A DNA stretch of 43,800 nt from Escherichia coli (lineage in GTDB: Bacteria > Pseudomonadota > Gammaproteobacteria > Enterobacterales > Enterobacteriaceae): the NCBI RefSeq assembly GCF_003334315.1, contig NZ_QOWR01000040.1; one strand, written 5' to 3'. The position numbers were made by a program, and so were the translations under genes. Position 1 is the stretch's first letter, and every line of letters begins with the position of its first letter. Of this stretch, positions 27,385 through 38,336 are shown in pieces. Below the pieces are notes generated by a model. The model saw only the letters and a list, made by a program, of their open reading frames with translations. It made no database searches and was not told the DNA's origin.

Positions 27385-29025
27385 ATGGCAATCCACAATC
27401 GTGCAGGCCAACCTGCACAACAGAGTGATTTGATTAACGTCGCCCAACTGGCGGCGCAATATTATGTACTGAAACCAGAAGCAGGGAATGCGGAGCACGC
27501 GGTGAAATTCGGTACTTCCGGTCACCGTGGCAGTGCAGCGCGCCACAGCTTTAACGAGCCGCACATTCTGGCGATCGCTCAGGCAATTGCTGAAGAACGT
27601 GCGAAAAACGGCATCACTGGCCCTTGCTATGTGGGTAAAGATACTCACGCCCTGTCCGAGCCTGCGTTCATTTCCGTACTGGAAGTGCTGGCAGCGAACG
27701 GCGTTGATGTCATTGTGCAGGAAAACAATGGCTTCACTCCAACGCCTGCCGTTTCCAATGCCATCCTGGTTCACAATAAAAAAGGTGGCCCGCTGGCAGA
27801 CGGTATCGTGATTACACCGTCCCATAACCCGCCGGAAGATGGTGGTATCAAGTACAATCCGCCAAATGGTGGCCCGGCTGATACCAACGTCACCAAAGTG
27901 GTGGAAGACAGGGCCAACGCACTGCTGGCCGATGGCCTGAAAGGCGTGAAGCGTATCTCCCTCGACGAAGCGATGGCATCCGGTCATGTGAAAGAGCAGG
28001 ATCTGGTGCAGCCGTTCGTGGAAGGGCTGGCCGATATCGTTGATATGGCGGCGATTCAGAAAGCGGGCCTGACGCTTGGCGTTGATCCGCTGGGCGGTTC
28101 CGGTATCGAATACTGGAAGCGTATTGGCGAGTATTACAACCTCAACCTGACTATCGTTAACGATCAGGTCGATCAAACCTTCCGCTTTATGCACCTTGAT
28201 AAAGACGGCGCGATCCGTATGGACTGCTCCTCCGAGTGTGCGATGGCGGGCCTGCTGGCACTGCGTGATAAGTTCGATCTGGCGTTTGCTAACGACCCGG
28301 ATTATGACCGTCACGGTATCGTCACTCCGGCAGGTTTGATGAATCCGAACCACTACCTGGCGGTGGCGATCAATTACCTGTTCCAGCATCGTCCGCAGTG
28401 GGGCAAAGATGTTGCCGTTGGTAAAACGCTGGTTTCTTCTGCGATGATCGACCGTGTGGTCAATGACTTGGGTCGTAAGCTGGTAGAAGTCCCGGTAGGT
28501 TTCAAATGGTTTGTTGATGGTCTGTTCGACGGCAGCTTCGGCTTTGGCGGCGAAGAGAGCGCAGGGGCTTCCTTCCTGCGTTTCGACGGCACGCCGTGGT
28601 CCACCGACAAAGACGGCATCATCATGTGTCTGCTGGCGGCGGAAATCACCGCTGTCACCGGTAAGAACCCGCAGGAACACTACAACGAACTGGCAAAACG
28701 CTTTGGTGCGCCGAGCTACAACCGTTTGCAGGCAGCTGCGACTTCCGCACAAAAAGCGGCGCTGTCTAAGCTGTCTCCGGAAATGGTGAGCGCCAGCACC
28801 CTGGCAGGTGACCCGATCACCGCGCGCCTGACTGCTGCTCCGGGCAACGGTGCTTCTATTGGCGGTCTGAAAGTGATGACTGACAACGGCTGGTTCGCCG
28901 CGCGTCCGTCAGGCACGGAAGACGCATATAAGATCTACTGCGAAAGCTTCCTCGGTGAAGAACATCGCAAGCAGATCGAGAAAGAAGCGGTTGAGATTGT
29001 TAGCGAAGTTCTGAAAAACGCGTAA
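27385..29025 (+). CDS. pgm: Phosphoglucomutase Pgm (546 aa; six-frame ORF begins at 27334)
   Basis: Phosphoserine loop GTSGHRG and TPSHNP motif; start MAIHNRAGQ. Confidence 0.95.
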
Positions 29026-29040
29026 ACACATTAAATAAGA

Positions 29041-29070
29041 AAAAGGGCGGTCGGAAGATCGCCCTTTTTT
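29041..29070 (+). terminator. Intrinsic terminator after pgm
   Basis: GGGCGG-tcggaaga-TCGCCC hairpin followed by TTTTTT. Confidence 0.7.
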
Positions 29071-29080
29071 ACGTATGACA

Positions 29081-29190
29081 AACACAGAATTGCCTGATGC
29101 GCTACGCTTATCAGGCCTACGAGGATGGTGCAATATATTGAATTTACGCGATTTTGTAGGCCGGATAAGGCGTTCACGCCGCATCCGGCA
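29081..29190. repeat. BIME (REP pair with conserved linker)
   Basis: TGCCTGATGCGCTACGCTTATCAGGCCTAC-linker-GTAGGCCGGATAAGGCGTTCACGCCGCATCCGGCA. Confidence 0.8.
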
Positions 29191-29239
29191 AAAACAACGA
29201 ACACTTTGTCAACAAACTGAGTAGCTCAAGGAAATCCCA

Positions 29240-29734
29240 ATGAAGACCAACAGGAGTCTGGTCGTCATAGTGTCACTAATTACCGCCACATTACTGCTGA
29301 CTGCATGCGCCCAACCTGAACAATCATCATTAGCTGGCGACTGGTTACTGACCCCTAAAGATAAAACCAGAGGATTAACGGGTAGCATTGCGGTAAATAT
29401 TGCACCTTCCCGGTGTAAGACAAATTGCCGTGGTGATAACTTACCTGATAATACCCGCCGCTGGCAGTTGTCAGGCGGGAACGAAAAAGAACTTACTTAT
29501 CTTCATAATATGTCAGCACAAGAAAAGGTCGGTTTAAATCCCGGTTGGCAATGCTACACCTCATTTTTTATGCGGGTTTGCCAGGGCAAGCCCGGCACTC
29601 GACCGATAGTCAATGAGGATTATGTCAGCGAAAGCGGATTTTTTGGCTCGATGATGCATGTCGGGATTATTGAGTTACGACGCTGCCAGTCAGAAAATTG
29701 CCAGCAAGAATTGAAAGCGATAAATACACATTAA
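29240..29734 (+). CDS. ybfP: Putative lipoprotein YbfP (164 aa), function unknown
   Basis: Signal peptide with lipobox LLLTAC; Cys-rich; AT-rich codon usage. Confidence 0.8.
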   Translation: MKTNRSLVVIVSLITATLLLTACAQPEQSSLAGDWLLTPKDKTRGLTGSIAVNIAPSRCKTNCRGDNLPDNTRRWQLSGGNEKELTYLHNMSAQEKVGLNPGWQCYTSFFMRVCQGKPGTRPIVNEDYVSESGFFGSMMHVGIIELRRCQSENCQQELKAINTH

Positions 29735-29740
29735 AATAGT

Positions 29741-29766
29741 GAGTCCGGAAATGAAACCCGGACCTG
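29741..29766. terminator. Hairpin between convergent ybfP and ybfG (no strong T-run)
   Basis: GTCCGG-aaatgaaac-CCGGAC. Confidence 0.35.
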
Positions 29767-29774
29767 AACATGTC

Positions 29775-30425
29775 TTATTGCGTGAATGTTTCTTTCATTT
29801 GATACTGCATTTCCCAGAGTTCAGTAAGCGAAATAACTTTTCTTGTTTTTGCTTCTTCACTTTGTACCCATAAGAAAGGGTAGAACGTGAAGGCTTCCGT
29901 TGCCGATAATTTTATTACGTCTTCTCGCCATTGCTGCCATCGTACATTTTCATAGAAGGTATCTAAATCACCGGATAATGCCCACTGAAGAAACTCAGAA
30001 TATCCAACTTCCAGACTTTCCCAATTCAGCGTATCTGGCGCAAAATAATAAACGCAGCCAGTATCTTCCCCAAGATCGCCACCATTAAGAGCAAAAATTC
30101 CCCCTGCGACATCGTCAGCGATGGGTAAAGCCCGCACGCCTGCGAATTCAGGGCGTTGTGTCCAACTTACTGGATCTCGTGGCAACCGGGGGTGACCAGA
30201 TCCTGCTATGCGTAACCAACCATTATCAATCAGCAGACCTCCGGAGCCATAGACAAGCGCACCCATTGGTGATTTTGTTGTCACCTGTAATTGATAAAGT
30301 GCGGTTTCGGCTAAATCTTTATTAACCGGTAAGAGTTCGGTATGGTTTGTGGCGTCTTTTAACCAGTTCTGGATTATTGGCCAGGCTGAATCTTCAGTAT
30401 TTACTAACTGATTCATTTCACGCAT
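29775..30425 (-). CDS. ybfG: Uncharacterised protein YbfG (216 aa from the ATG with an AGGAG RBS; in-frame ORF extends to 30533, 252 aa)
   Basis: Intact ORF; no recognisable catalytic motif; my recollection is that the K-12 counterpart is split or pseudogenised. Confidence 0.6.
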   Translation of the reverse strand: MREMNQLVNTEDSAWPIIQNWLKDATNHTELLPVNKDLAETALYQLQVTTKSPMGALVYGSGGLLIDNGWLRIAGSGHPRLPRDPVSWTQRPEFAGVRALPIADDVAGGIFALNGGDLGEDTGCVYYFAPDTLNWESLEVGYSEFLQWALSGDLDTFYENVRWQQWREDVIKLSATEAFTFYPFLWVQSEEAKTRKVISLTELWEMQYQMKETFTQ

Positions 30426-30548
30426 TGCTACTTGCTCCTTGTGTGCTACGGTGTCATTTATGATGAGGAATTGTATGGAACATTTTTTAAATATTAAGTT
30501 CCTTATATTTGAATAAAAAATGACTTTATCCATACATTGCCACTTTTT

Positions 30549-30683
30549 TCAAAGCATAAACCGATACCCAATACCGGTTTCAGTAATAAAATGGCGAGGC
30601 CGGGCCGGATCCTGTTCCAGTTTTTGTCGCAGATGCCCCATATAATTACGCAAATAGTTGCTGTGTTCGATCGCGTTTAGACC
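30549..30683 (-). pseudogene. ybfI: KdpE-like response-regulator C-terminal fragment (ybfI-like remnant)
   Basis: ~135 bp roughly 90% identical to kdpE 3' end at 34978-35112; in-frame translation ...IEHSNYLRNYMGHLRQKLEQDPARPRHFITETGIGYRFML* versus KdpE ...VEHSHYLRIYMGHLRQKLEQDPARPRHFITETGIGYRFML*; no N-terminal receiver domain. Confidence 0.8.
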
Positions 30684-30732
30684 CTACATCTGCCGGATGC
30701 GGCATAAATAACGAACTATTTGCCAACAAACA

Positions 30733-30764
30733 GAAAGGGCGATCATTCAATCGCCCTTTTTTAC
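30733..30764. terminator. Hairpin terminator downstream of potE
   Basis: AAAGGGCGAT-cattcaa-TCGCCCTTTTTT. Confidence 0.55.
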
Positions 30765-30773
30765 TTTGTTTTA

Positions 30774-32093
30774 TTAACCGTGTTTATTTTTCAGTTCAAA
30801 GCGTGGTGATACCAGACCATACAGTGTCCAACCAAGGAAGGTCACGATGGAACCGTACAGCATGGCTTCTTCCCCGGATGAGTACAGCGCATAGAAACTG
30901 TACATCGCGCCAACAAAAGCAACAAAGTTTGCAACTTTCGCTTTTGAGGGGGGCACATTAGCGACCTTCTGAATAATGACTAATGCCGCCATTGACAGAA
31001 TATACGGAATGATATTGGTCACCACGGCCAGGTTAACCAGCACGTTGAACTGACTGTTTAGCGACGGGCTAATCGTCATCAGCGCCAACCCGCTCTGGAT
31101 AATCACAATGGTCAACATTCCCTGCACCGGTGCATCCACTTTGGTTACACGGGAGAAAATTTTAGGGAAGTAGCCTTCATCAGATGAAGATTTAAACACC
31201 TGGGCAATGGTGAACTGCCAGCCAAGTAGCGAACCGCAGCAGGACATCACCATCAGCGCCATAATGACTTTACCCACTTCCGGCGTGAACATCTGCGCGA
31301 AGGCCAGACCAAATGGTGCCGTTGAATTTGCCAGCTCCATATTTGGCACAATCCCGGCAATCACGTTGGTGGAGACGATATAAATCACCGCCGCACCTAA
31401 CGTACCGCCGAGTACCGCGATTGGCACATTACGTTCCGGGTTTTCCACTACATCAGTATTTGCACACGCAGACTCCAGACCAAGAAAAGCCCACAGCGTC
31501 ATAGCGATGGAAGAACCTACCGCACTGAAGAACGGTGCATGATGCGGATTCCAGGAATCAACGTACAGCGTCGGGCTAAACCAGAACCAGCCAATAATGC
31601 ACAGACCGACGACCGGAATAATGACCCCCCACACGGTAATGCTACTGATTTGCCCGGTAATGCGCGCACCACCAAAGTTAGCCACGGTACAAATCCACAG
31701 CACCCCGATGGTCGCAAGACCAATCTGCACTGGCGACAAACTCGCGCCGAGCAGTTCGGTGCCGTAACCAACCGCCGAAATAGCAATCGCGACGTTAGCA
31801 ATCAGCAGTGAGACGCCGTAGGTATAGTTCGCCATAAAGTTACCGGATTTACCGAAAGCATACTCGGCATAACCGCCCATACCGCCTGATTTACGGCTGA
31901 ACATACCGCATTTTGCGAATGCCCATGCCAGTGCCATTGAGCCTACGGCTGTCACCAGCCAGGAGATAATTGAGATTGTCCCGACTTCGGCAAGCTTTGT
32001 CGGCAGCATGATGATACCGGAGCCCATCATGTTGACCATCGTCAGTATGGTTAACTGAACGACGCCCATTTTGTTCGATTTAGCCTGACTCAT
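30774..32093 (-). CDS. potE: Putrescine/ornithine antiporter PotE (439 aa)
   Basis: APC-family multi-TM protein; 4-bp overlap with speF stop. Confidence 0.95.
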   Translation of the reverse strand: MSQAKSNKMGVVQLTILTMVNMMGSGIIMLPTKLAEVGTISIISWLVTAVGSMALAWAFAKCGMFSRKSGGMGGYAEYAFGKSGNFMANYTYGVSLLIANVAIAISAVGYGTELLGASLSPVQIGLATIGVLWICTVANFGGARITGQISSITVWGVIIPVVGLCIIGWFWFSPTLYVDSWNPHHAPFFSAVGSSIAMTLWAFLGLESACANTDVVENPERNVPIAVLGGTLGAAVIYIVSTNVIAGIVPNMELANSTAPFGLAFAQMFTPEVGKVIMALMVMSCCGSLLGWQFTIAQVFKSSSDEGYFPKIFSRVTKVDAPVQGMLTIVIIQSGLALMTISPSLNSQFNVLVNLAVVTNIIPYILSMAALVIIQKVANVPPSKAKVANFVAFVGAMYSFYALYSSGEEAMLYGSIVTFLGWTLYGLVSPRFELKNKHG

Positions 32094-34288
32094 AATTTTT
32101 CCCCTTTCAACAGGGTGCTTTGCGCATCACGAGGCTTGATGACATAGCACCAAACTTGCTTACGACCATCATGTTCTTCGATATAGACACCCTGCAGCTC
32201 CGGTGCAAAACCTGGCAGCAGGTTGATCCCTTCTTCCAGAGCGCTGAAGTAACGCAGAACAGCACCACCCCAGATTTCACCCGGAACAACACACAGCACA
32301 CCCGGAGGATAAGGAAGCGCACCTTCGGCAGCGATACGGCCTTCTGCATCCGGCAGACGAACCAGTTCCACTTCACCGCGTAAATAGGCGTAGTTGGCTT
32401 CTTGCGGATTCATGCTGACGCGTGGGAAGTGCTCCTTACGGAACATCTCTTTTTGCAGTTGTTTCACGTTGTGGCGGGCATACAAATCATGCATTTCCTG
32501 ACACAACTGACGCAGGGTATAACCGGCGTAGCGCTCTTCATGCTGTTTGTAGATGGAAGGTAGCACTTCTGCTAATGGCGCGTCGGACTCAAGCAGTTTT
32601 TCGAAGCGTACCAGCAGGGCAACAAGTTGCTGAAGTTTGGCCATATCTTCTGCCGGAGTCAGCAGGAAGAGGATGGAGTTAAGATCGCATTTTTCCGGCA
32701 CTACGCCATTTTCGCGTAGGAAGTTAGCAAGAATCGTCGCGGGTACACCGAACGCTTCATATTCGCCGTTACGTGCATCAATACCTGGGGTTGTCAGCAA
32801 CAGTTTGCATGGATCGACAAAGTATTGATTCTCTGCATAGCCTTCAAAAGAATGCCAGTGTTCCCCTGGTACAAACTGGAAGAAGCGCAGATCAACCGCA
32901 ATTTGCGCTGTTTCATACGACTGCCAGGGTTTACCATCCACCAGTTCAGGTACGAACGGACGAATATGCTGACAGTTATCGAGGATCAGTTTGCGGGCAT
33001 TAATGCCATTTACCACACAATCCATCCACATATTACGACCGCTGACACCTTCATGCATTTTGGCGTTGATATCCAGTGCGGCAAACAGCGGATAGAACGG
33101 GCTGGTGGAGGCGTGCATCATAAAGGCGTTGTTCATGCGTTTGTGCGGTACATAACGCTGTTGCCCTTTGATGTGGCTGTCTTTTTTATGAATTTGTGAA
33201 GTCTGAGAAAAACCAGCCTGTTGTTTATGCACAGATTGCGTAACCAGAATACCCGGATCGTTCTCATTAAGATCCAGCAACAGCGGCGAACAGTCCGCCA
33301 TCATCGGAATAAACTGTTCATAGCCGACCCATGCTGAGTCAAACAGGATGTAGTCACACAGATGACCAATTTTATCCACCACCTGGCGGGCGTTATAAAT
33401 CGTACCGTCGTAGGTGCCTAACTGAATCACAGCGAGGCGGAAAGGACGAGCCTCTTTTGCCCGCTGCGGTGCGACTTCCGCGATCAGCTCACGCAGGTAA
33501 CTTTCTTCAAAACAGTGCGCATCAATGCCACCGATAAAGCCATACGGGTTACGTGCCGTTTCCAGATAAACCGGTGTTGCACCAGCCTGTAGCAACGCTC
33601 CGTGGTGGTTAGATTTGTGGTTATTGCGGTCAAACAGCACCAGATCACCCGGTGTTAGCAGGGCGTTTAAAACCACTTTGTTAGAAAATGAAGTGCCATT
33701 TAAAACGAAGTAGGTTTTATCGGCATTAAACACTTTTGCCGCATGTTGCTGTGCAATGCATGGCGCGCCTTCGTGAATCAGCAGATCGCCCATCGCTACG
33801 TCGGCGTTGCACAAGTCGGCACGGAACAGCGCCTCACCAAAGTATTCCACAAACTGATTCCCCGCCGGATGGCGACGGAAAAATTCGCCGCCCTGATGAC
33901 CAGGGCAATCAAACGCGCTGTTACCTTGATTGACATAATCGACCAGTGCGCGGAAGAAAGGTGGGCGCAGTTGAGTTTCATAATGGCTGGCAGCGGTTTC
34001 TAACTGGCGACCATAAAATTCTTTACGTGCTTCGCTAGGTTCGAAGACACCAGAAATACGTGAAAGATATTCTGCTGGTATACGTTCTTCATTTTCCGTT
34101 GCAATAAAAACAGGAATGCCATAGCCAGTAGCGTCTATTTCATCGAGTTTTCCACGTTCCACATCATTGACCGATAAAATAATGGCGGCAACGTCAATAT
34201 AATTACTTTCGTCAATATTCACGCATGTACGATGAGTGGAAAAACAATCCGGGCAAGAACGACTAACGGCAATTTTTAATTCTGACAT
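32090..34288 (-). CDS. speF: Inducible ornithine decarboxylase SpeF (732 aa; ORF could start 3 codons upstream at 34297)
   Basis: Large PLP-dependent Orn/Lys/Arg decarboxylase fold; speF-potE operon. Confidence 0.9.
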   Translation of the reverse strand: MSELKIAVSRSCPDCFSTHRTCVNIDESNYIDVAAIILSVNDVERGKLDEIDATGYGIPVFIATENEERIPAEYLSRISGVFEPSEARKEFYGRQLETAASHYETQLRPPFFRALVDYVNQGNSAFDCPGHQGGEFFRRHPAGNQFVEYFGEALFRADLCNADVAMGDLLIHEGAPCIAQQHAAKVFNADKTYFVLNGTSFSNKVVLNALLTPGDLVLFDRNNHKSNHHGALLQAGATPVYLETARNPYGFIGGIDAHCFEESYLRELIAEVAPQRAKEARPFRLAVIQLGTYDGTIYNARQVVDKIGHLCDYILFDSAWVGYEQFIPMMADCSPLLLDLNENDPGILVTQSVHKQQAGFSQTSQIHKKDSHIKGQQRYVPHKRMNNAFMMHASTSPFYPLFAALDINAKMHEGVSGRNMWMDCVVNGINARKLILDNCQHIRPFVPELVDGKPWQSYETAQIAVDLRFFQFVPGEHWHSFEGYAENQYFVDPCKLLLTTPGIDARNGEYEAFGVPATILANFLRENGVVPEKCDLNSILFLLTPAEDMAKLQQLVALLVRFEKLLESDAPLAEVLPSIYKQHEERYAGYTLRQLCQEMHDLYARHNVKQLQKEMFRKEHFPRVSMNPQEANYAYLRGEVELVRLPDAEGRIAAEGALPYPPGVLCVVPGEIWGGAVLRYFSALEEGINLLPGFAPELQGVYIEEHDGRKQVWCYVIKPRDAQSTLLKGEKL

Positions 34289-34598
34289 TTTGTTCATCTC
34301 TTTATTTCAGGTAATAGCAGGTCCTCAATTTCTCAAAGGAGAAATCGATCACGCCGGAAAAAAAGCAAAGCTCCACCGCTGATAAATAAATCAGTAGTTT
34401 GCTTTTTGCAGATGCAATAACCCAGACCAGCCCGGTAACTGGCTATACTCGTCATCCTTCAAGTTGCATATGCTGCGACTCGAATTATTTAGAGTTTAAA
34501 AGGGTTAGCAGTATATGAGCACCGAGGAATACAGGTATTAACCTGTAATGCTTAAAGTCAGGGAGACCTGTACGCTGGGGTGCCCTTTAGTCAGAAGA

Positions 34599-34703
34599 CT
34601 AGCGGGCATTAAAGAAATGAAAGTCAAAACTATTACGATGGGCAAACTTCATGATATGGGGTGTCCGCCTTATATGAGGCATTAAGCGGTTATTATTTTC
34701 CAT
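34599..34703 (-). CDS. speFL: speFL, 34-codon ornithine-sensing ribosome-arrest leader peptide
   Basis: Minus-strand translation MENNNRLMPHIRRTPHIMKFAHRNSFDFHFFNAR*, about 300 nt upstream of speF; matches the described SpeFL apart from a few residues that may be strain variation or imperfect recall. Confidence 0.75.
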   Translation of the reverse strand: MENNNRLMPHIRRTPHIMKFAHRNSFDFHFFNAR

Positions 34704-34977
34704 TTACCTTTACCTCTTGCTGTGTCAGTTGAAGGTAGAGTTATTCTATCCATGAAATGGCTATAATCTGTGAAGAAGATCAACAAAAAACGATCATACC
34801 CCAGATAATAAATCATTAATTATGAATAGCGCCATATTAGACGCTGTTTTGTTATTTAAATGTTGTAATTTTGTGTTTTATATTTGCGTTAAGAAATTAA
34901 ACCTGCCAAATAATAATATTTGGTGCAGGTTTAATAATAAATTAATCACTATTTAAGCGAATTTATTGAATAAAAAT

Positions 34978-35655
34978 TCAAAGCATAAACCGATAGCCAA
35001 TACCGGTTTCAGTAATGAAATGGCGTGGGCGGGCGGGATCCTGTTCCAGTTTTTGTCGCAGATGTCCCATATAAATACGCAAATAGTGACTGTGTTCGAC
35101 CGCGTTTGGCCCCCACACCTGGTTAAGGAGCTGGCGCTGGGTGAGTACTTTTCCGGCATTGTTGAGCAGCACCGCCAGCAGGCGGAACTCAATTGGTGTG
35201 AGATGCACCTCTTCCTCACCCCGGTGAATCACGCGGGCGGCTAAATCGACGGTAACATCGGAAAATTTCACCAGCGGATCGGGTGCGGTGGTGGCAGAGT
35301 GGCGGCGTAATGCGACGCGCAGACGGGCCTGCAATTCGCCAATGCCAAACGGCTTACTCAGATAATCATCCGCTCCGGCATCCAGCGCGGCGATTTTGTC
35401 GCTCTCTTCGCTGCGTGCGGAAAGCACAATCACCGGCACCGCGCTCCACTGGCGCAGGTCGCGGATAAACTCAATCCCATCACCATCGGGCAGGCCGAGA
35501 TCGAGAATAATCAAATCTGGCTTACGGGTAGCCGCTTCCAGCAAGCCGCGTTGCAGCGTTTCGGCCTCATAGACGCGCATCCCGTCGCCCTCCAGCGCCG
35601 TGCGCAGAAAGCGACGAATAGCCTGTTCATCTTCAACAATCAGAACGTTTGTCAC
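34978..35655 (-). CDS. kdpE: Two-component response regulator KdpE (225 aa)
   Basis: Receiver domain ([18 protein letters not shown]-box) plus OmpR-type winged helix; 4-bp overlap with kdpD stop. Confidence 0.95.
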   Translation of the reverse strand: MTNVLIVEDEQAIRRFLRTALEGDGMRVYEAETLQRGLLEAATRKPDLIILDLGLPDGDGIEFIRDLRQWSAVPVIVLSARSEESDKIAALDAGADDYLSKPFGIGELQARLRVALRRHSATTAPDPLVKFSDVTVDLAARVIHRGEEEVHLTPIEFRLLAVLLNNAGKVLTQRQLLNQVWGPNAVEHSHYLRIYMGHLRQKLEQDPARPRHFITETGIGYRFML

Positions 35656-38336
35656 ATATCCTCATGAAATTCTTCAAGTTCAGGGGCAGTTTGCTGGGGA
35701 AGTGTAACACGAAAACAGGCACCACCTTCCGGTCGGTTGAACGCGGTAATAGTGCCCCCGTGTACATCCACTATCGCCCGACAAATTGCCAGTCCAAGCC
35801 CTACCCCCGGTACTGCCGACTCTTTATTCCCGCGAGCAAACTTATCAAATATCGTCTGCTCCTGGCCTGGCGGAAGACCGGGGCCGTTATCCCAGACATC
35901 CAGTTGTAGATTTTCGCCCTCAACGTGGGCATCGATACCAATTTCGGCCTGCGCACCCGCATATTTCACCGCGTTCTCCAGCAGATTAATCAGCACCCGT
36001 TCAAAGAGTGGCCCGTCAACGTGGATTAAGGTCAGCGGTTCTGGCAGAGAAAGATTGATGGGCGACGATAAACCCGGTTCCAGCATTTGCAGCGCGCTGC
36101 CGACTACTTCTTCCAGCGTTAACCACTCTTTCTTCAAATTAAAGCCGCCGGACTGAATTCGCGCCATATCCAGTAGATTATTCACCAGTCGGGTAGTGTT
36201 CAGCACATGCTGACGAATCTCGCTGGCCTGGCGGGCGTGGGGCGATCCTTCGCTTGCCAGATCGAGCGTTAAGATTTCTGCCTGACCAAACAGCACCGTA
36301 AGCGGCGTGCGTAAATCATGCGAAAGCGCCGCCAGCAGGGCGTTGCGGATCTGTTCACGTTCGCTTGCCATCCGCGCCTGTTCTTCGCTGGCGGTCAGTG
36401 TCAGCCGCTCAAGGGCATTGGCGACTAACAGCGTAAATGTCTCCAGCAGGCGCTGCTGCTCCGGGATCATCAACTGGCGCAGATTCCCCGGTTCCACCAC
36501 CACCAGTCCGTAGGTTTTCTCGCCGCTTTTTAGCGGCAAAATCTGGTACGGCACGCCGGGTAACGTGTCGGTGCCCGCACCCGCAGGCAGGCCTTTATCA
36601 AAACTCCACTGCGCGATGGCATCGTCCCATGGCGTCATTCCTTGCGGATGTGTTAACGGCTGCAATTTACCGTTGTCATCGGGCAACAACACCTGACTGC
36701 GGGCATGAAACGTGGAGGCAATAAATTGTTCGCTGGTGGCGGCGATGTCCTGCGGACTGCGGCCCACCGCCAGAGCTTTCGACATTTCATATAAGTGCCG
36801 TGTGCGTTGCTCGCGGTAGCGGGCTACCCGCGCCTGATAACGCACGCCAGCAGTAAGGTTCCCGATCACCAGCCCGACGGTTAACATCACCGCGAAGGTC
36901 AGCAGATATTGCACATCAGAGACGGCGAGCGTGCCGCGTGGGGCGATAAAAAAGAGATCGAAACTCACCACATTAATGACGGTAGCAACCACCGAAGGCC
37001 AGCGTCCATAAAATAGCGCCACTACCACCACGCCAAGCAGATACAGCATCACCAGGTTGGCGGCATCAAACGCCATCAGCCACTGCATGGCAATTAAGGT
37101 GATAACGGCGCATAACGCGGCGGCAACCACGCATCCCTGAATCTGTACCCGCCACTTGTCTTTAAAAGAGCGGCTATCCGGCGCGTTGTTAATCGTGCGG
37201 GCGGGTGGTTCATCAAGCGCGACCAGCACCTGATCGAGATCGGGGGCGATGCGCGCCAGTCGGTCAGCAAACGTTTCCCGACGCCACCAGCGGCGCGAGG
37301 CTGGGCGACCGAGAATAATCTTGCCGAGATTATGTTCACGGGCATAACGCACTACCGCTTTCTCTTCCGCTGGATCAGAAAGTGTTGCCGTCTCCGCGCC
37401 CAGCTCCTGCGCCAGACGTAAGGCGCTGAGAATTGCCCGACGTTTTTTCTCCGGTAAGCGATGCAGGGCAGGGGTTTCAACATACACCGCGTGCCAGACG
37501 CTCCCCAGCCGTGACGCCAGCCGCGCCGCCGCGCGGACCAGTTTTTCGCTGCCGGTGTTATGGCCGATGCATAAAAGGATCGCGTCGCGCGTGTGCCAGA
37601 CTTTCTCTTCGCCAGGATGCCCCCGCCAGGCGCGCATTTGCTCATCAACGCGATCGGCAGTACGGCGCAGTGCCAGTTCGCGCAGGGCGATCAGATTGCC
37701 TTTGCGGAAAAAATGTTCAATGGCGCGCTCCGCCTGCCCGGCAATATAGACTTTGCCTTCTTTCAGCCGCTGGCGCAGATCGTCCGGGGGCAAGTCCACC
37801 AGCACCACGTCGTCGGCGGCATCGAAAAAAGGATCGGGCACGGTTTCCCGTACCTGAATTCCGGTGACGCCGCTGACCACATCATTCAGACTTTCCAGAT
37901 GCTGAACGTTGACGGTTGTGAAAACATCAATGCCAGCTTCCAGCAGTTCTTCGATATCCTGCCAGCGTTTAGGATGACGAGAACCTGGCGCATTACTGTG
38001 CGCCAGTTCGTCCATTAAGATCAGCGCCGGACGGCGGGCGAGGGCGGCATCGAGATCAAACTCGCTGATATGCCGCCCACGGTACGCCTGGCGTTTGGGC
38101 GGCAGAACAGCCAGCCCTTCAAGCATGGCGGCGGTATCTTTCCGCCCATGGGTTTCTACCACGCCAACCACAATATCCAGCCCTTGCGCCCGCAGTCGCT
38201 GGGCTTCTGCCAGCATCGCCCAGGTCTTCCCGACGCCTGCACAGGCACCGAAGAAAACTTTCAGCTTCCCCCGATGCGGCGCGGCAGTTTGTTCCAGCAG
38301 ACGATCGGGGTCGGGACGTAAGGGTTCGTTATTCAT
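35652..38336 (-). CDS. kdpD: Sensor histidine kinase KdpD (894 aa; six-frame ORF extends to 38378)
   Basis: N-terminal KdpD domain with Walker [13 protein letters not shown]-like region, 4 TM helices, H-box SHDLRTPL and HATPase domain. Confidence 0.95.

What the first reader, a model, noticed from the sequence alone, without database searches (positions are those of the whole stretch)
30549..35112. speF-potE cassette flanked by ~135-bp direct repeats of the kdpE 3' end
Positions 30549-30683 and 34978-35112 are co-oriented copies, roughly 90% identical by eye and diverging gradually beyond ~135 bp. The right copy is the real 3' end of kdpE; the left copy is an orphan C-terminal fragment that still keeps the reading frame (mostly synonymous or conservative changes). 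The repeats bracket potE, speF, speFL and the long leader, about 4.4 kb. This architecture suggests the acid-inducible ornithine decarboxylase/antiporter module was placed here by a recombination event that duplicated or captured a response-regulator 3' end.
Basis: seen in the sequence. Interest (0 to 1): 0.55.

Follow-up and report, generated by a model that had tools for sequence, protein, structure and literature searches.

The report
Dead kdpE fragment (ybfI) recombination scar
The repeat is real, but its left copy is the already annotated E. coli pseudogene ybfI, a dead tail of the kdpE regulator gene that came with the small ybfP-ybfG islet and not with the ancient speF-potE operon, so this is an ordinary recombination scar.

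Summary
Window 30548-30692 and 34977-35121 are co-oriented 145-nt copies, 90% identical. The right copy is the 3' end of kdpE. The left copy is an orphan KdpE C-terminal fragment, already annotated in K-12 as pseudogene ybfI (b4636).

kdpD-kdpE-speF-potE(-pgm) synteny holds in 55 of 80 Enterobacterales loci, across about 17 genera. None of these has a second kdpE piece, ybfP or ybfG. So speF-potE beside kdpE is ancestral and was not placed there by the event that made the repeat.

The fragment is confined to E. coli and is linked to the lower-GC ybfP-ybfG islet, found in 1770 of 5426 complete genomes. All fragment haplotypes share one junction and one TGG>TAG stop, which points to a single origin. 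A second, about 40-nt repeat pair (REP end plus spacer) shows that this arrangement joins two alternative pgm-kdpE alleles at one illegitimate junction. The order of events is not resolved.

Fragment-specific changes are almost all non-synonymous, as expected for decay. The synonymous differences match other functional kdpE alleles.

Two genomes have lost speF-potE between the repeats.

Low interest.

The parts
30548..30692 (-). Left repeat copy. This is the orphan kdpE 3' fragment (pseudogene ybfI, b4636; PGAP fragment 30549-30683). It corresponds to the last 48 codons of kdpE, with TGG>TAG at codon 3.
34977..35121 (-). Right repeat copy. This is the 3' end of the intact kdpE gene (34978-35655).
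30692..30731 (.). Junction partner of the fragment: a REP-like 13-mer (gccggatgcggca) plus spacer x' (taaataacgaactatttgccaacaaac). It is the second copy of a roughly 40-nt direct repeat. The g at 30692 is shared with kdpE 'ctg' (2-3 nt of microhomology).
29178..29217 (.). First copy of the roughly 40-nt repeat: the end of the last REP of the pgm-proximal BIME (gccgcatccggca) plus spacer x (aaaacaacgaacactttgtcaacaaac).
29240..29734 (+). ybfP (lipoprotein). Part of the E. coli-specific islet.
29775..30425 (-). ybfG (DUF2625). Part of the islet. The closest homologues outside E. coli are about 53% identical.
30426..30547 (.). AT-rich spacer between the ybfG start and the fragment's stop codon ('flank L'). 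It is unrelated to the sequence downstream of the real kdpE.
30734..30762 (.). potE terminator hairpin (T2). It resembles the pgm terminator T1 at 29040-29070. In O157-type genomes one hybrid hairpin serves both genes.
30774..34703 (-). potE (30774-32093), speF (32090-34288) and speFL (34599-34703). This is the ancestral operon lying between the repeats.

Best explanation
The left copy is ybfI. It is a non-functional 3' remnant of an Escherichia coli kdpE allele, left by one illegitimate recombination event.

Shown: speF-potE between kdpE and pgm is the ancestral arrangement in Enterobacteriaceae. The fragment exists only in E. coli. It always lies next to the lower-GC ybfP-ybfG islet. It has a single origin.

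Inferred: the pgm-kdpE interval exists as alternative alleles. One type is pgm-T1-BIME-x-T2-potE-speF-speFL-kdpE. Another type carries ybfP (and ybfG) and lacks speF-potE. The window's arrangement is the sum of two such alleles. They were joined once, between kdpE codon -48 and the head of a REP element, at 2-3 nt of microhomology. Everything the two alleles shared inside the overlap is therefore present twice: the last 145 nt of kdpE, and the REP end plus spacer x. One homologous crossover (in pgm or in kdpDE) plus one illegitimate end-join would produce this, in the manner of homology-facilitated illegitimate recombination. Which allele was the recipient is unresolved.

Present-day behaviour: the fragment sits beyond the potE terminator and is decaying. 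As a 145-nt direct repeat it is a substrate for homologous deletion of speF-potE, and probably for gene conversion with kdpE.
For: 1. Known pseudogene. MG1655 annotates ybfI b4636 at this place. PGAP calls it 'winged helix-turn-helix, missing N-terminus'.

2. Ancestral synteny. 55 of 80 loci have kdpE-speF-potE and 52 also have pgm, in about 17 genera including E. albertii, Salmonella, Citrobacter, Enterobacter, Kluyvera, Raoultella, Atlantibacter and Cedecea. None has a second kdpE piece or ybfP/ybfG.

3. Linkage to the islet. 1770 of 5426 complete E. coli genomes carry ybfG-ybfI-junction as one block. All other genomes match only through kdpE itself. O157-type genomes have pgm-terminator-potE with nothing in between.

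4. Single origin. Three fragment haplotypes that differ by up to 8% share the same junction (..CCTACAyCTG|CCGGATGCGGCATAAATAA..) and the same TAG, AAC and AAT changes.

5. Second repeat pair and the predicted parental allele. 29178-29217 resembles 30692-30731. Strains E69 and R32_14_1F have pgm-T1-BIME-x-T2-potE, which matches the right-hand part of the window's arrangement. About 320 genomes have pgm-BIME-x-ybfP-BIME-kdpE without speF-potE.

6. Source of the fragment. It is 88-93% identical to E. coli kdpE alleles, 85.5% to E. albertii and lower to other genera.

7. Decay pattern. All 6 missense or nonsense differences are specific to the fragment. Seven of the 8 synonymous differences are states found in functional kdpE alleles of other E. 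coli. Overall dN/dS is 0.15 and dS is 0.32.

8. Foreign composition of the islet. GC is 0.36-0.47, against 0.55-0.59 in pgm and kdpE. The closest YbfG homologues outside E. coli are about 53% identical.

9. Deletion between the repeats. CUWW10 and GF4-3 have ybfG abutting a full kdpE. Their ybfP-ybfG sequences nest inside the diversity of fragment-bearing genomes.
Against: No sampled genome has the predicted ybfP-ybfG-kdpE parental allele in a position basal to all fragment-bearing genomes. The two ybfG-kdpE genomes look derived.

The fragment is not closer to the kdpE alleles of ybfP-only genomes (88.7-89.4%) than to other alleles.

The REP-like 13-mer at the junction differs at two symmetric positions from the REP end in the parental-type allele.

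A tandem duplication followed by replacement would give the same final structure.

Arrangement counts come from BLAST coverage thresholds, not from a phylogeny.
Confidence: 0.75

Rival explanations
1. Tandem duplication first. In a pgm-T1-BIME-x-T2-potE-speF-speFL-kdpE genome, the 4.43-kb unit from the REP end to kdpE codon -48 duplicated in tandem. The interior of the pgm-proximal copy (T2 through the kdpE-downstream flank) was later replaced by foreign ybfP-ybfG.
For: This gives exactly the observed pairs of repeats and a single novel junction. REP elements are known duplication join points (established knowledge). About half of the L/R differences could be decay in the left copy.
Against: It needs an unstable duplication to survive until a precise replacement occurred. 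dS of 0.32 between the copies, with 7 of 8 synonymous differences matching other live alleles, fits two separately evolved functional alleles better, although later allele replacement of the right copy could mimic that. ybfP-bearing alleles without speF-potE exist as old, diverse lineages.
Confidence: 0.15
2. One reading: speF-potE is an acquired cassette whose insertion next to or into kdpE duplicated the kdpE 3' end.
For: The repeats do bracket the operon. Two genomes lack the operon exactly between the repeats. A re-acquisition variant is compatible with the allele-fusion model.
Against: The same gene order occurs without any repeat in 55 loci from about 17 genera, and in about 60% of E. 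coli. The fragment co-occurs with ybfG and not with speF-potE. The operon-less ybfG-kdpE genomes nest within fragment-bearing haplotypes.
Confidence: 0.05
3. Site-specific integration of a mobile element that carries a substitute 3' end of its target gene. The model is e14 or phage 21 in icd, which leaves the icdC pseudo-end.
For: The formal architecture is the same: an intact gene, inserted DNA, then a displaced 3' end as a direct repeat (established knowledge of icd/e14, recalled rather than tested).
Against: There is no integrase, recombinase or other mobility gene between or beside the repeats. The DNA between the repeats is a conserved core operon. The homology ends at a REP junction and not at an att core.
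Confidence: 0.02
4. The fragment is functional. It might encode a short wHTH-tail peptide, or it might provide regulatory sequence such as a promoter for ybfG.
For: A 44-codon open frame is retained. The last 31 codons are identical in protein to KdpE. A weak -35/-10-like match overlaps the stop codon on the ybfG strand.
Against: There is an in-frame TAG and no start codon or ribosome-binding site. Other haplotypes carry a frameshift. The fragment lies after the potE terminator. Promoter-like sites are no more frequent than in shuffled sequence. Conservation of the distal part is explained by its allelic origin or by conversion.
Confidence: 0.03

Closest known systems
ybfI (b4636), annotated pseudogene of E. 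coli K-12 MG1655
   Same: It is the same locus and the same sequence: 100% identical to the window's left copy. It lies between ybfG and potE.
   Different: Nothing structural differs. The window's strain differs from K-12 only in the speF and leader segment.
icd / icdC duplication made by e14 and phage 21 integration (recalled from the literature, not tested here)
   Same: An intact gene is followed by intervening DNA and then an orphan copy of the gene's 3' end as a direct repeat. The copies differ mainly at synonymous sites.
   Different: There is no integrase or att site here. The intervening DNA is an ancestral operon and not a prophage. One end of the junction is a REP element.
Homology-facilitated illegitimate recombination (described for Acinetobacter and Streptococcus transformation; own knowledge)
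   Same: One homologous anchor plus one microhomology end-join would produce this single novel junction and the duplicated overlap.
   Different: This is inferred from structure only. The donor, the recipient and the transfer route are unknown.
REP/BIME-associated rearrangement hot spots in E. coli intergenic regions (own knowledge)
   Same: The junction lies at a REP head. Alternative alleles differ by the presence or absence of BIMEs.
   Different: The partner of the REP is a coding sequence, not another REP.

Membership tests
KdpE response regulator (NCBIfam NF007820 equivalog) | Specific similarity to KdpE rather than to other OmpR/PhoB-type regulators. | tested here: met
   The fragment matches profile positions 182-225 of 225 with E=3e-23. 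The next family has E=4e-4. DNA identity to E. coli kdpE alleles is 88-93%.
KdpE response regulator (NCBIfam NF007820 equivalog) | Full-length protein (receiver domain plus wHTH) scoring above the curated cut-off. | tested here: not met
   The fragment scores 82 bits against a cut-off of 325. It has only the last 44 residues and no receiver domain. The right-hand gene scores 488 bits.
Pseudogene / gene remnant | Truncated, with a disrupted frame, and substitutions specific to the copy that are not filtered by selection. | tested here: met
   The N-terminal 177 codons are missing. There is a TGG>TAG change. The fragment-specific changes are 6 non-synonymous and 1 synonymous. Other haplotypes carry a 1-nt deletion. 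It is annotated as a pseudogene.
Integrative element with a duplicated target 3' end (icd/e14 type) | A recombinase or integrase encoded within the segment bounded by the repeats. | tested here: not met
   Only potE, speF, speFL and a small hypothetical ORF lie between the repeats.
Integrative element with a duplicated target 3' end (icd/e14 type) | The bounded segment is accessory or foreign relative to related genomes. | tested here: not met
   The bounded segment is syntenic in 55 loci from about 17 genera, without repeats.
Allele fusion by one illegitimate junction (unequal or HFIR-type recombination) | A single novel junction with microhomology, and co-linear duplication of every element shared by the two parental alleles. 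| tested here: met
   The junction is kdpE ..CCTG | CCGGATGCGGC, identical in all haplotypes. There are two co-linear repeat pairs, of 145 nt and about 40 nt.
Allele fusion by one illegitimate junction (unequal or HFIR-type recombination) | Both parental allele types exist. | tested here: inconclusive
   The speF-potE parent type with BIME-x-T2 was found (E69 and R32_14_1F). ybfP-bearing alleles without speF-potE were found. The exact ybfP-ybfG-kdpE parent was seen only in 2 genomes that look derived.

The most novel reading that the evidence does not exclude
The dead fragment may not be inert. As a 145-nt direct repeat it could make the speF-potE operon excisable in the third of E. coli that carry it; two natural deletions were seen. 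It may also exchange sequence with the live kdpE by gene conversion. In that case a pseudogene would shape the unusually high allelic diversity of the kdpE 3' end, and could occasionally donate its stop codon.
Probability: 0.3. Interest if true: 0.3.

Novelty: already known. Interest (0 to 1): 0.15.

Why it matters
It matters little beyond E. coli genome housekeeping. The result corrects a tempting reading, that the acid-response module is a mobile cassette. It shows instead that the module is ancient at this site and that the small ybfP-ybfG islet is the newcomer. It also documents the pgm-kdpE interval as a REP-rich hot spot with at least six arrangements. The repeat explains rare natural loss of speF-potE, which could matter when strains are compared for ornithine-dependent acid resistance or putrescine export.

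Tried and rejected
- The literature search for ybfI returned only Bacillus subtilis genes of that name, and no open-access paper on the E. coli pseudogene.
- Rfam found nothing in 28900-35300.
- The promoter and terminator scan found nothing beyond the known potE terminator. Promoter-like hits were at background level.
- I looked for a donor genus in which ybfG adjoins kdpE. YbfG has no close homologue outside E. coli (53% at best), so I did not follow its contexts further.
- I tested whether operon-less ybfG-kdpE genomes are the ancestral 'empty site'. This was rejected because their ybfP-ybfG sequences nest within fragment-bearing haplotypes. KL53, E41 and MB10 are IS1-mediated deletions.
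- I tested whether TUM18530-type genomes (pgm-BIME-kdpE) arose by recombination between the two repeat copies. This was rejected because their kdpE-downstream flank is a REP and not the fragment's flank.
- I could not identify the exact source allele of the fragment. No live kdpE allele is more than 93% identical to it.
Full report
**Observation**

The window is E. coli. Positions 29800-35800 are 100% identical to strain HS30-1. The repeat finder gives a single long direct-repeat family between 29500 and 36500: 30548-30692 and 34977-35121, 145 nt, 90% identical, 4429 nt apart. The pairwise alignment shows similarity starting one base outside the TGA stop codon and ending abruptly 145 nt upstream. 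An exact 29-mer shared by the two copies occurs nowhere else in the window and in none of 100 shuffles. In MG1655 the same sequence is the annotated pseudogene ybfI, b4636.

**Identity of the fragment**

The 44-residue translation matches the NCBIfam KdpE equivalog at profile positions 182-225 of 225 with E=3e-23. Every other response-regulator family scores E>=4e-4. It also matches the tail of Pfam Trans_reg_C. At the DNA level it is 88-93% identical to kdpE alleles of E. coli, 85.5% to E. albertii, and at most 84% to Citrobacter, Salmonella and the rest. Its source was therefore an E. coli-clade kdpE.

**Was speF-potE placed here by the event?**

A scan of one genome per species with PotE returned 80 loci. 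tblastn with the window's proteins gave these results:
- 55 loci have kdpE, speF and potE together.
- 52 of those also have pgm just beyond potE.
- No locus has a second kdpE hit.
- No locus has ybfP or ybfG.

The genera include Escherichia (E. albertii), Salmonella, Citrobacter, Enterobacter, Kluyvera, Raoultella, Lelliottia, Leclercia, Atlantibacter, Cedecea, Trabulsiella, Pluralibacter, Yokenella and Phytobacter. The position of speF-potE between kdpE and pgm is therefore ancestral to the family and owes nothing to the repeat.

**Arrangements within E. coli (5426 complete genomes)**

| Label | Gene order | Genomes |
|---|---|---|
| A (the window) | pgm-ybfP-ybfG-ybfI-potE-speF-speFL-kdpE | 1770 |
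| B | pgm-terminator-potE-speF-speFL-kdpE, nothing in between (e.g. O157:H7) | most of the rest |
| B' | pgm-T1-BIME-x-T2-potE | 2, plus strain E69 |
| E | pgm-BIME-x-ybfP-BIME-kdpE, no ybfG or speF-potE | about 320 |
| C | pgm-BIME-kdpE | about 34 |
| D | pgm-ybfP-ybfG-kdpE | 2 |

There are also IS1-mediated deletions. The fragment is found only together with ybfG. It is absent from every speF-potE genome that lacks the islet.

The islet has lower GC (0.36-0.47) than pgm and kdpE (0.55-0.59). The closest YbfG homologues outside E. coli are about 53% identical.

**Anatomy of arrangement A**

Besides the 145-nt pair there is a second, co-linear repeat pair. The end of the last REP plus a 27-nt spacer x (29178-29217, upstream of ybfP) recurs at 30692-30731, directly joined to the truncated end of the fragment and followed by the potE terminator. 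The right-hand part of A, from that REP-like 13-mer onward, is the B' arrangement seen in E69 and R32_14_1F. The left-hand part (pgm-T1-BIME-x-ybfP) is shared with arrangement E.

A is thus the sum of two alternative alleles of the interval. They are joined at one junction, kdpE ..CCTG | CCGGATGCGGC.., with 2-3 nt of microhomology. Everything the two alleles shared within the overlap is present twice. Three fragment haplotypes that differ by up to 8% carry the identical junction and share TGG>TAG, CAC>AAC and ATT>AAT, so the event happened once.

**Substitution pattern**

The two copies differ at 14 sites: 8 synonymous, 5 missense and 1 nonsense. This gives dN/dS 0.15 and dS 0.32. Polarising against functional alleles shows two things. 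All six non-synonymous changes are specific to the fragment. Seven of the eight synonymous differences are states present in live kdpE alleles of other E. coli (strain 104, TUM18530, E69). The 'mostly synonymous' look therefore reflects two separately evolved functional alleles, while the fragment's own changes look neutral.

All non-synonymous changes lie in the first 16 codons. The last 31 codons carry only allelic differences. The other fragment haplotypes carry a different allele type plus a 1-nt deletion in that stretch. This suggests exchange between the fragment and a live kdpE, but the direction is unresolved.

**Consequences**

CUWW10 and GF4-3 have ybfG abutting a complete kdpE, and speF-potE is gone. 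Their ybfP and ybfG sequences nest inside the diversity of A-type genomes. CUWW10 is 0-0.3% from the window, and GF4-3 is 0.9-1.4% from the window. The A-type haplotypes differ from each other by 3-5%, and E-type ybfP is 5.5-6.3% away. These two genomes are best read as deletions by recombination between the two copies, not as the ancestral empty site.

The fragment lies beyond the potE terminator. No Rfam family matches the region.

**How it most likely arose**

The best-supported origin is fusion of a ybfP(-ybfG) allele lacking speF-potE with a B'-type allele. This would need one homologous crossover (in pgm or in kdpDE) and one illegitimate end-join. The direction is unresolved.

A tandem duplication of the 4.43-kb unit, followed by replacement of one copy's interior, gives the same structure and cannot be excluded. 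Site-specific integration of the icd/e14 type is rejected, because there is no recombinase and the bounded DNA is a core operon.

**Verdict**

- Observation: confirmed.
- Interpretation: partly supported. The copies are correctly identified and the repeat is a recombination scar, but the wrong segment was taken to be the newcomer.
- Novelty: already known, as the annotated pseudogene ybfI. I found no open-access paper on its evolutionary context, but that context is ordinary.
- Interest: low.

Noticed in passing
window 29026-30773; loci L002, L004, L009, L088, L092, L093: The pgm-kdpE interval is a REP/BIME-rich hot spot with at least six arrangements in E. coli. In other genera the potE-pgm gap ranges from 45 nt to 6 kb, and in some of them (e.g. 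Salmonella, Citrobacter, Kluyvera, Pluralibacter) the gap is long enough to hold extra sequence.
   Followed up: partly
L093 3757-3870; L002 5870-6000: About 350 E. coli genomes lack speF-potE altogether. In them kdpE ends in TAG instead of TGA and abuts a REP after 10 nt (attcag[a/c]ccc). The ybfP-less form could derive from the ybfP form by BIME-BIME recombination.
   Followed up: partly
window 34977-35121 and kdpE 3' ends in L002, L004, L006, L009, L090: The last 70 nt or so of kdpE is unusually polymorphic among E. coli: at least three synonymous haplotypes, with up to 10% divergence. This is more than the upstream part of the gene shows.
   Followed up: partly
window 30523-30552, minus strand: A weak sigma-70-like match (TTGAAA, 18 nt, TAAAGT) has its -35 hexamer overlapping the fragment's stop codon. 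It could be a ybfG promoter, but such hits are no more frequent than in shuffled sequence.
   Followed up: no
window 34289-34977: The speF leader and speFL region of this strain is O157-like. It is about 90 nt longer than in K-12 MG1655, and SpeF is 97% identical to the K-12 protein. The locus is therefore a mosaic of haplotypes.
   Followed up: no
window 34682-34816, minus strand: PGAP annotates a 44-aa hypothetical ORF overlapping speFL in the leader. In another strain the equivalent ORF is mislabelled 'TonB-dependent receptor' (L092).
   Followed up: no
L005, L089; strains MB10, ET846, VL7S7: IS1 insertions in or next to ybfG have repeatedly deleted neighbouring DNA. In E41 the deletion runs from ybfG through kdpB. 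In KL53 it removed speF-potE.
   Followed up: partly
L006 1714-2172; L091 5239-5697: In one fragment-bearing haplotype an IS200C copy sits in the BIME between pgm and ybfP. The same haplotype has a decayed ybfG, and in strain 200177 speF is frameshifted.
   Followed up: no
window 29240-29734: ybfP differs by up to 6% between arrangements, against 1-3% for the adjacent pgm. ybfP has no NCBIfam match.
   Followed up: no
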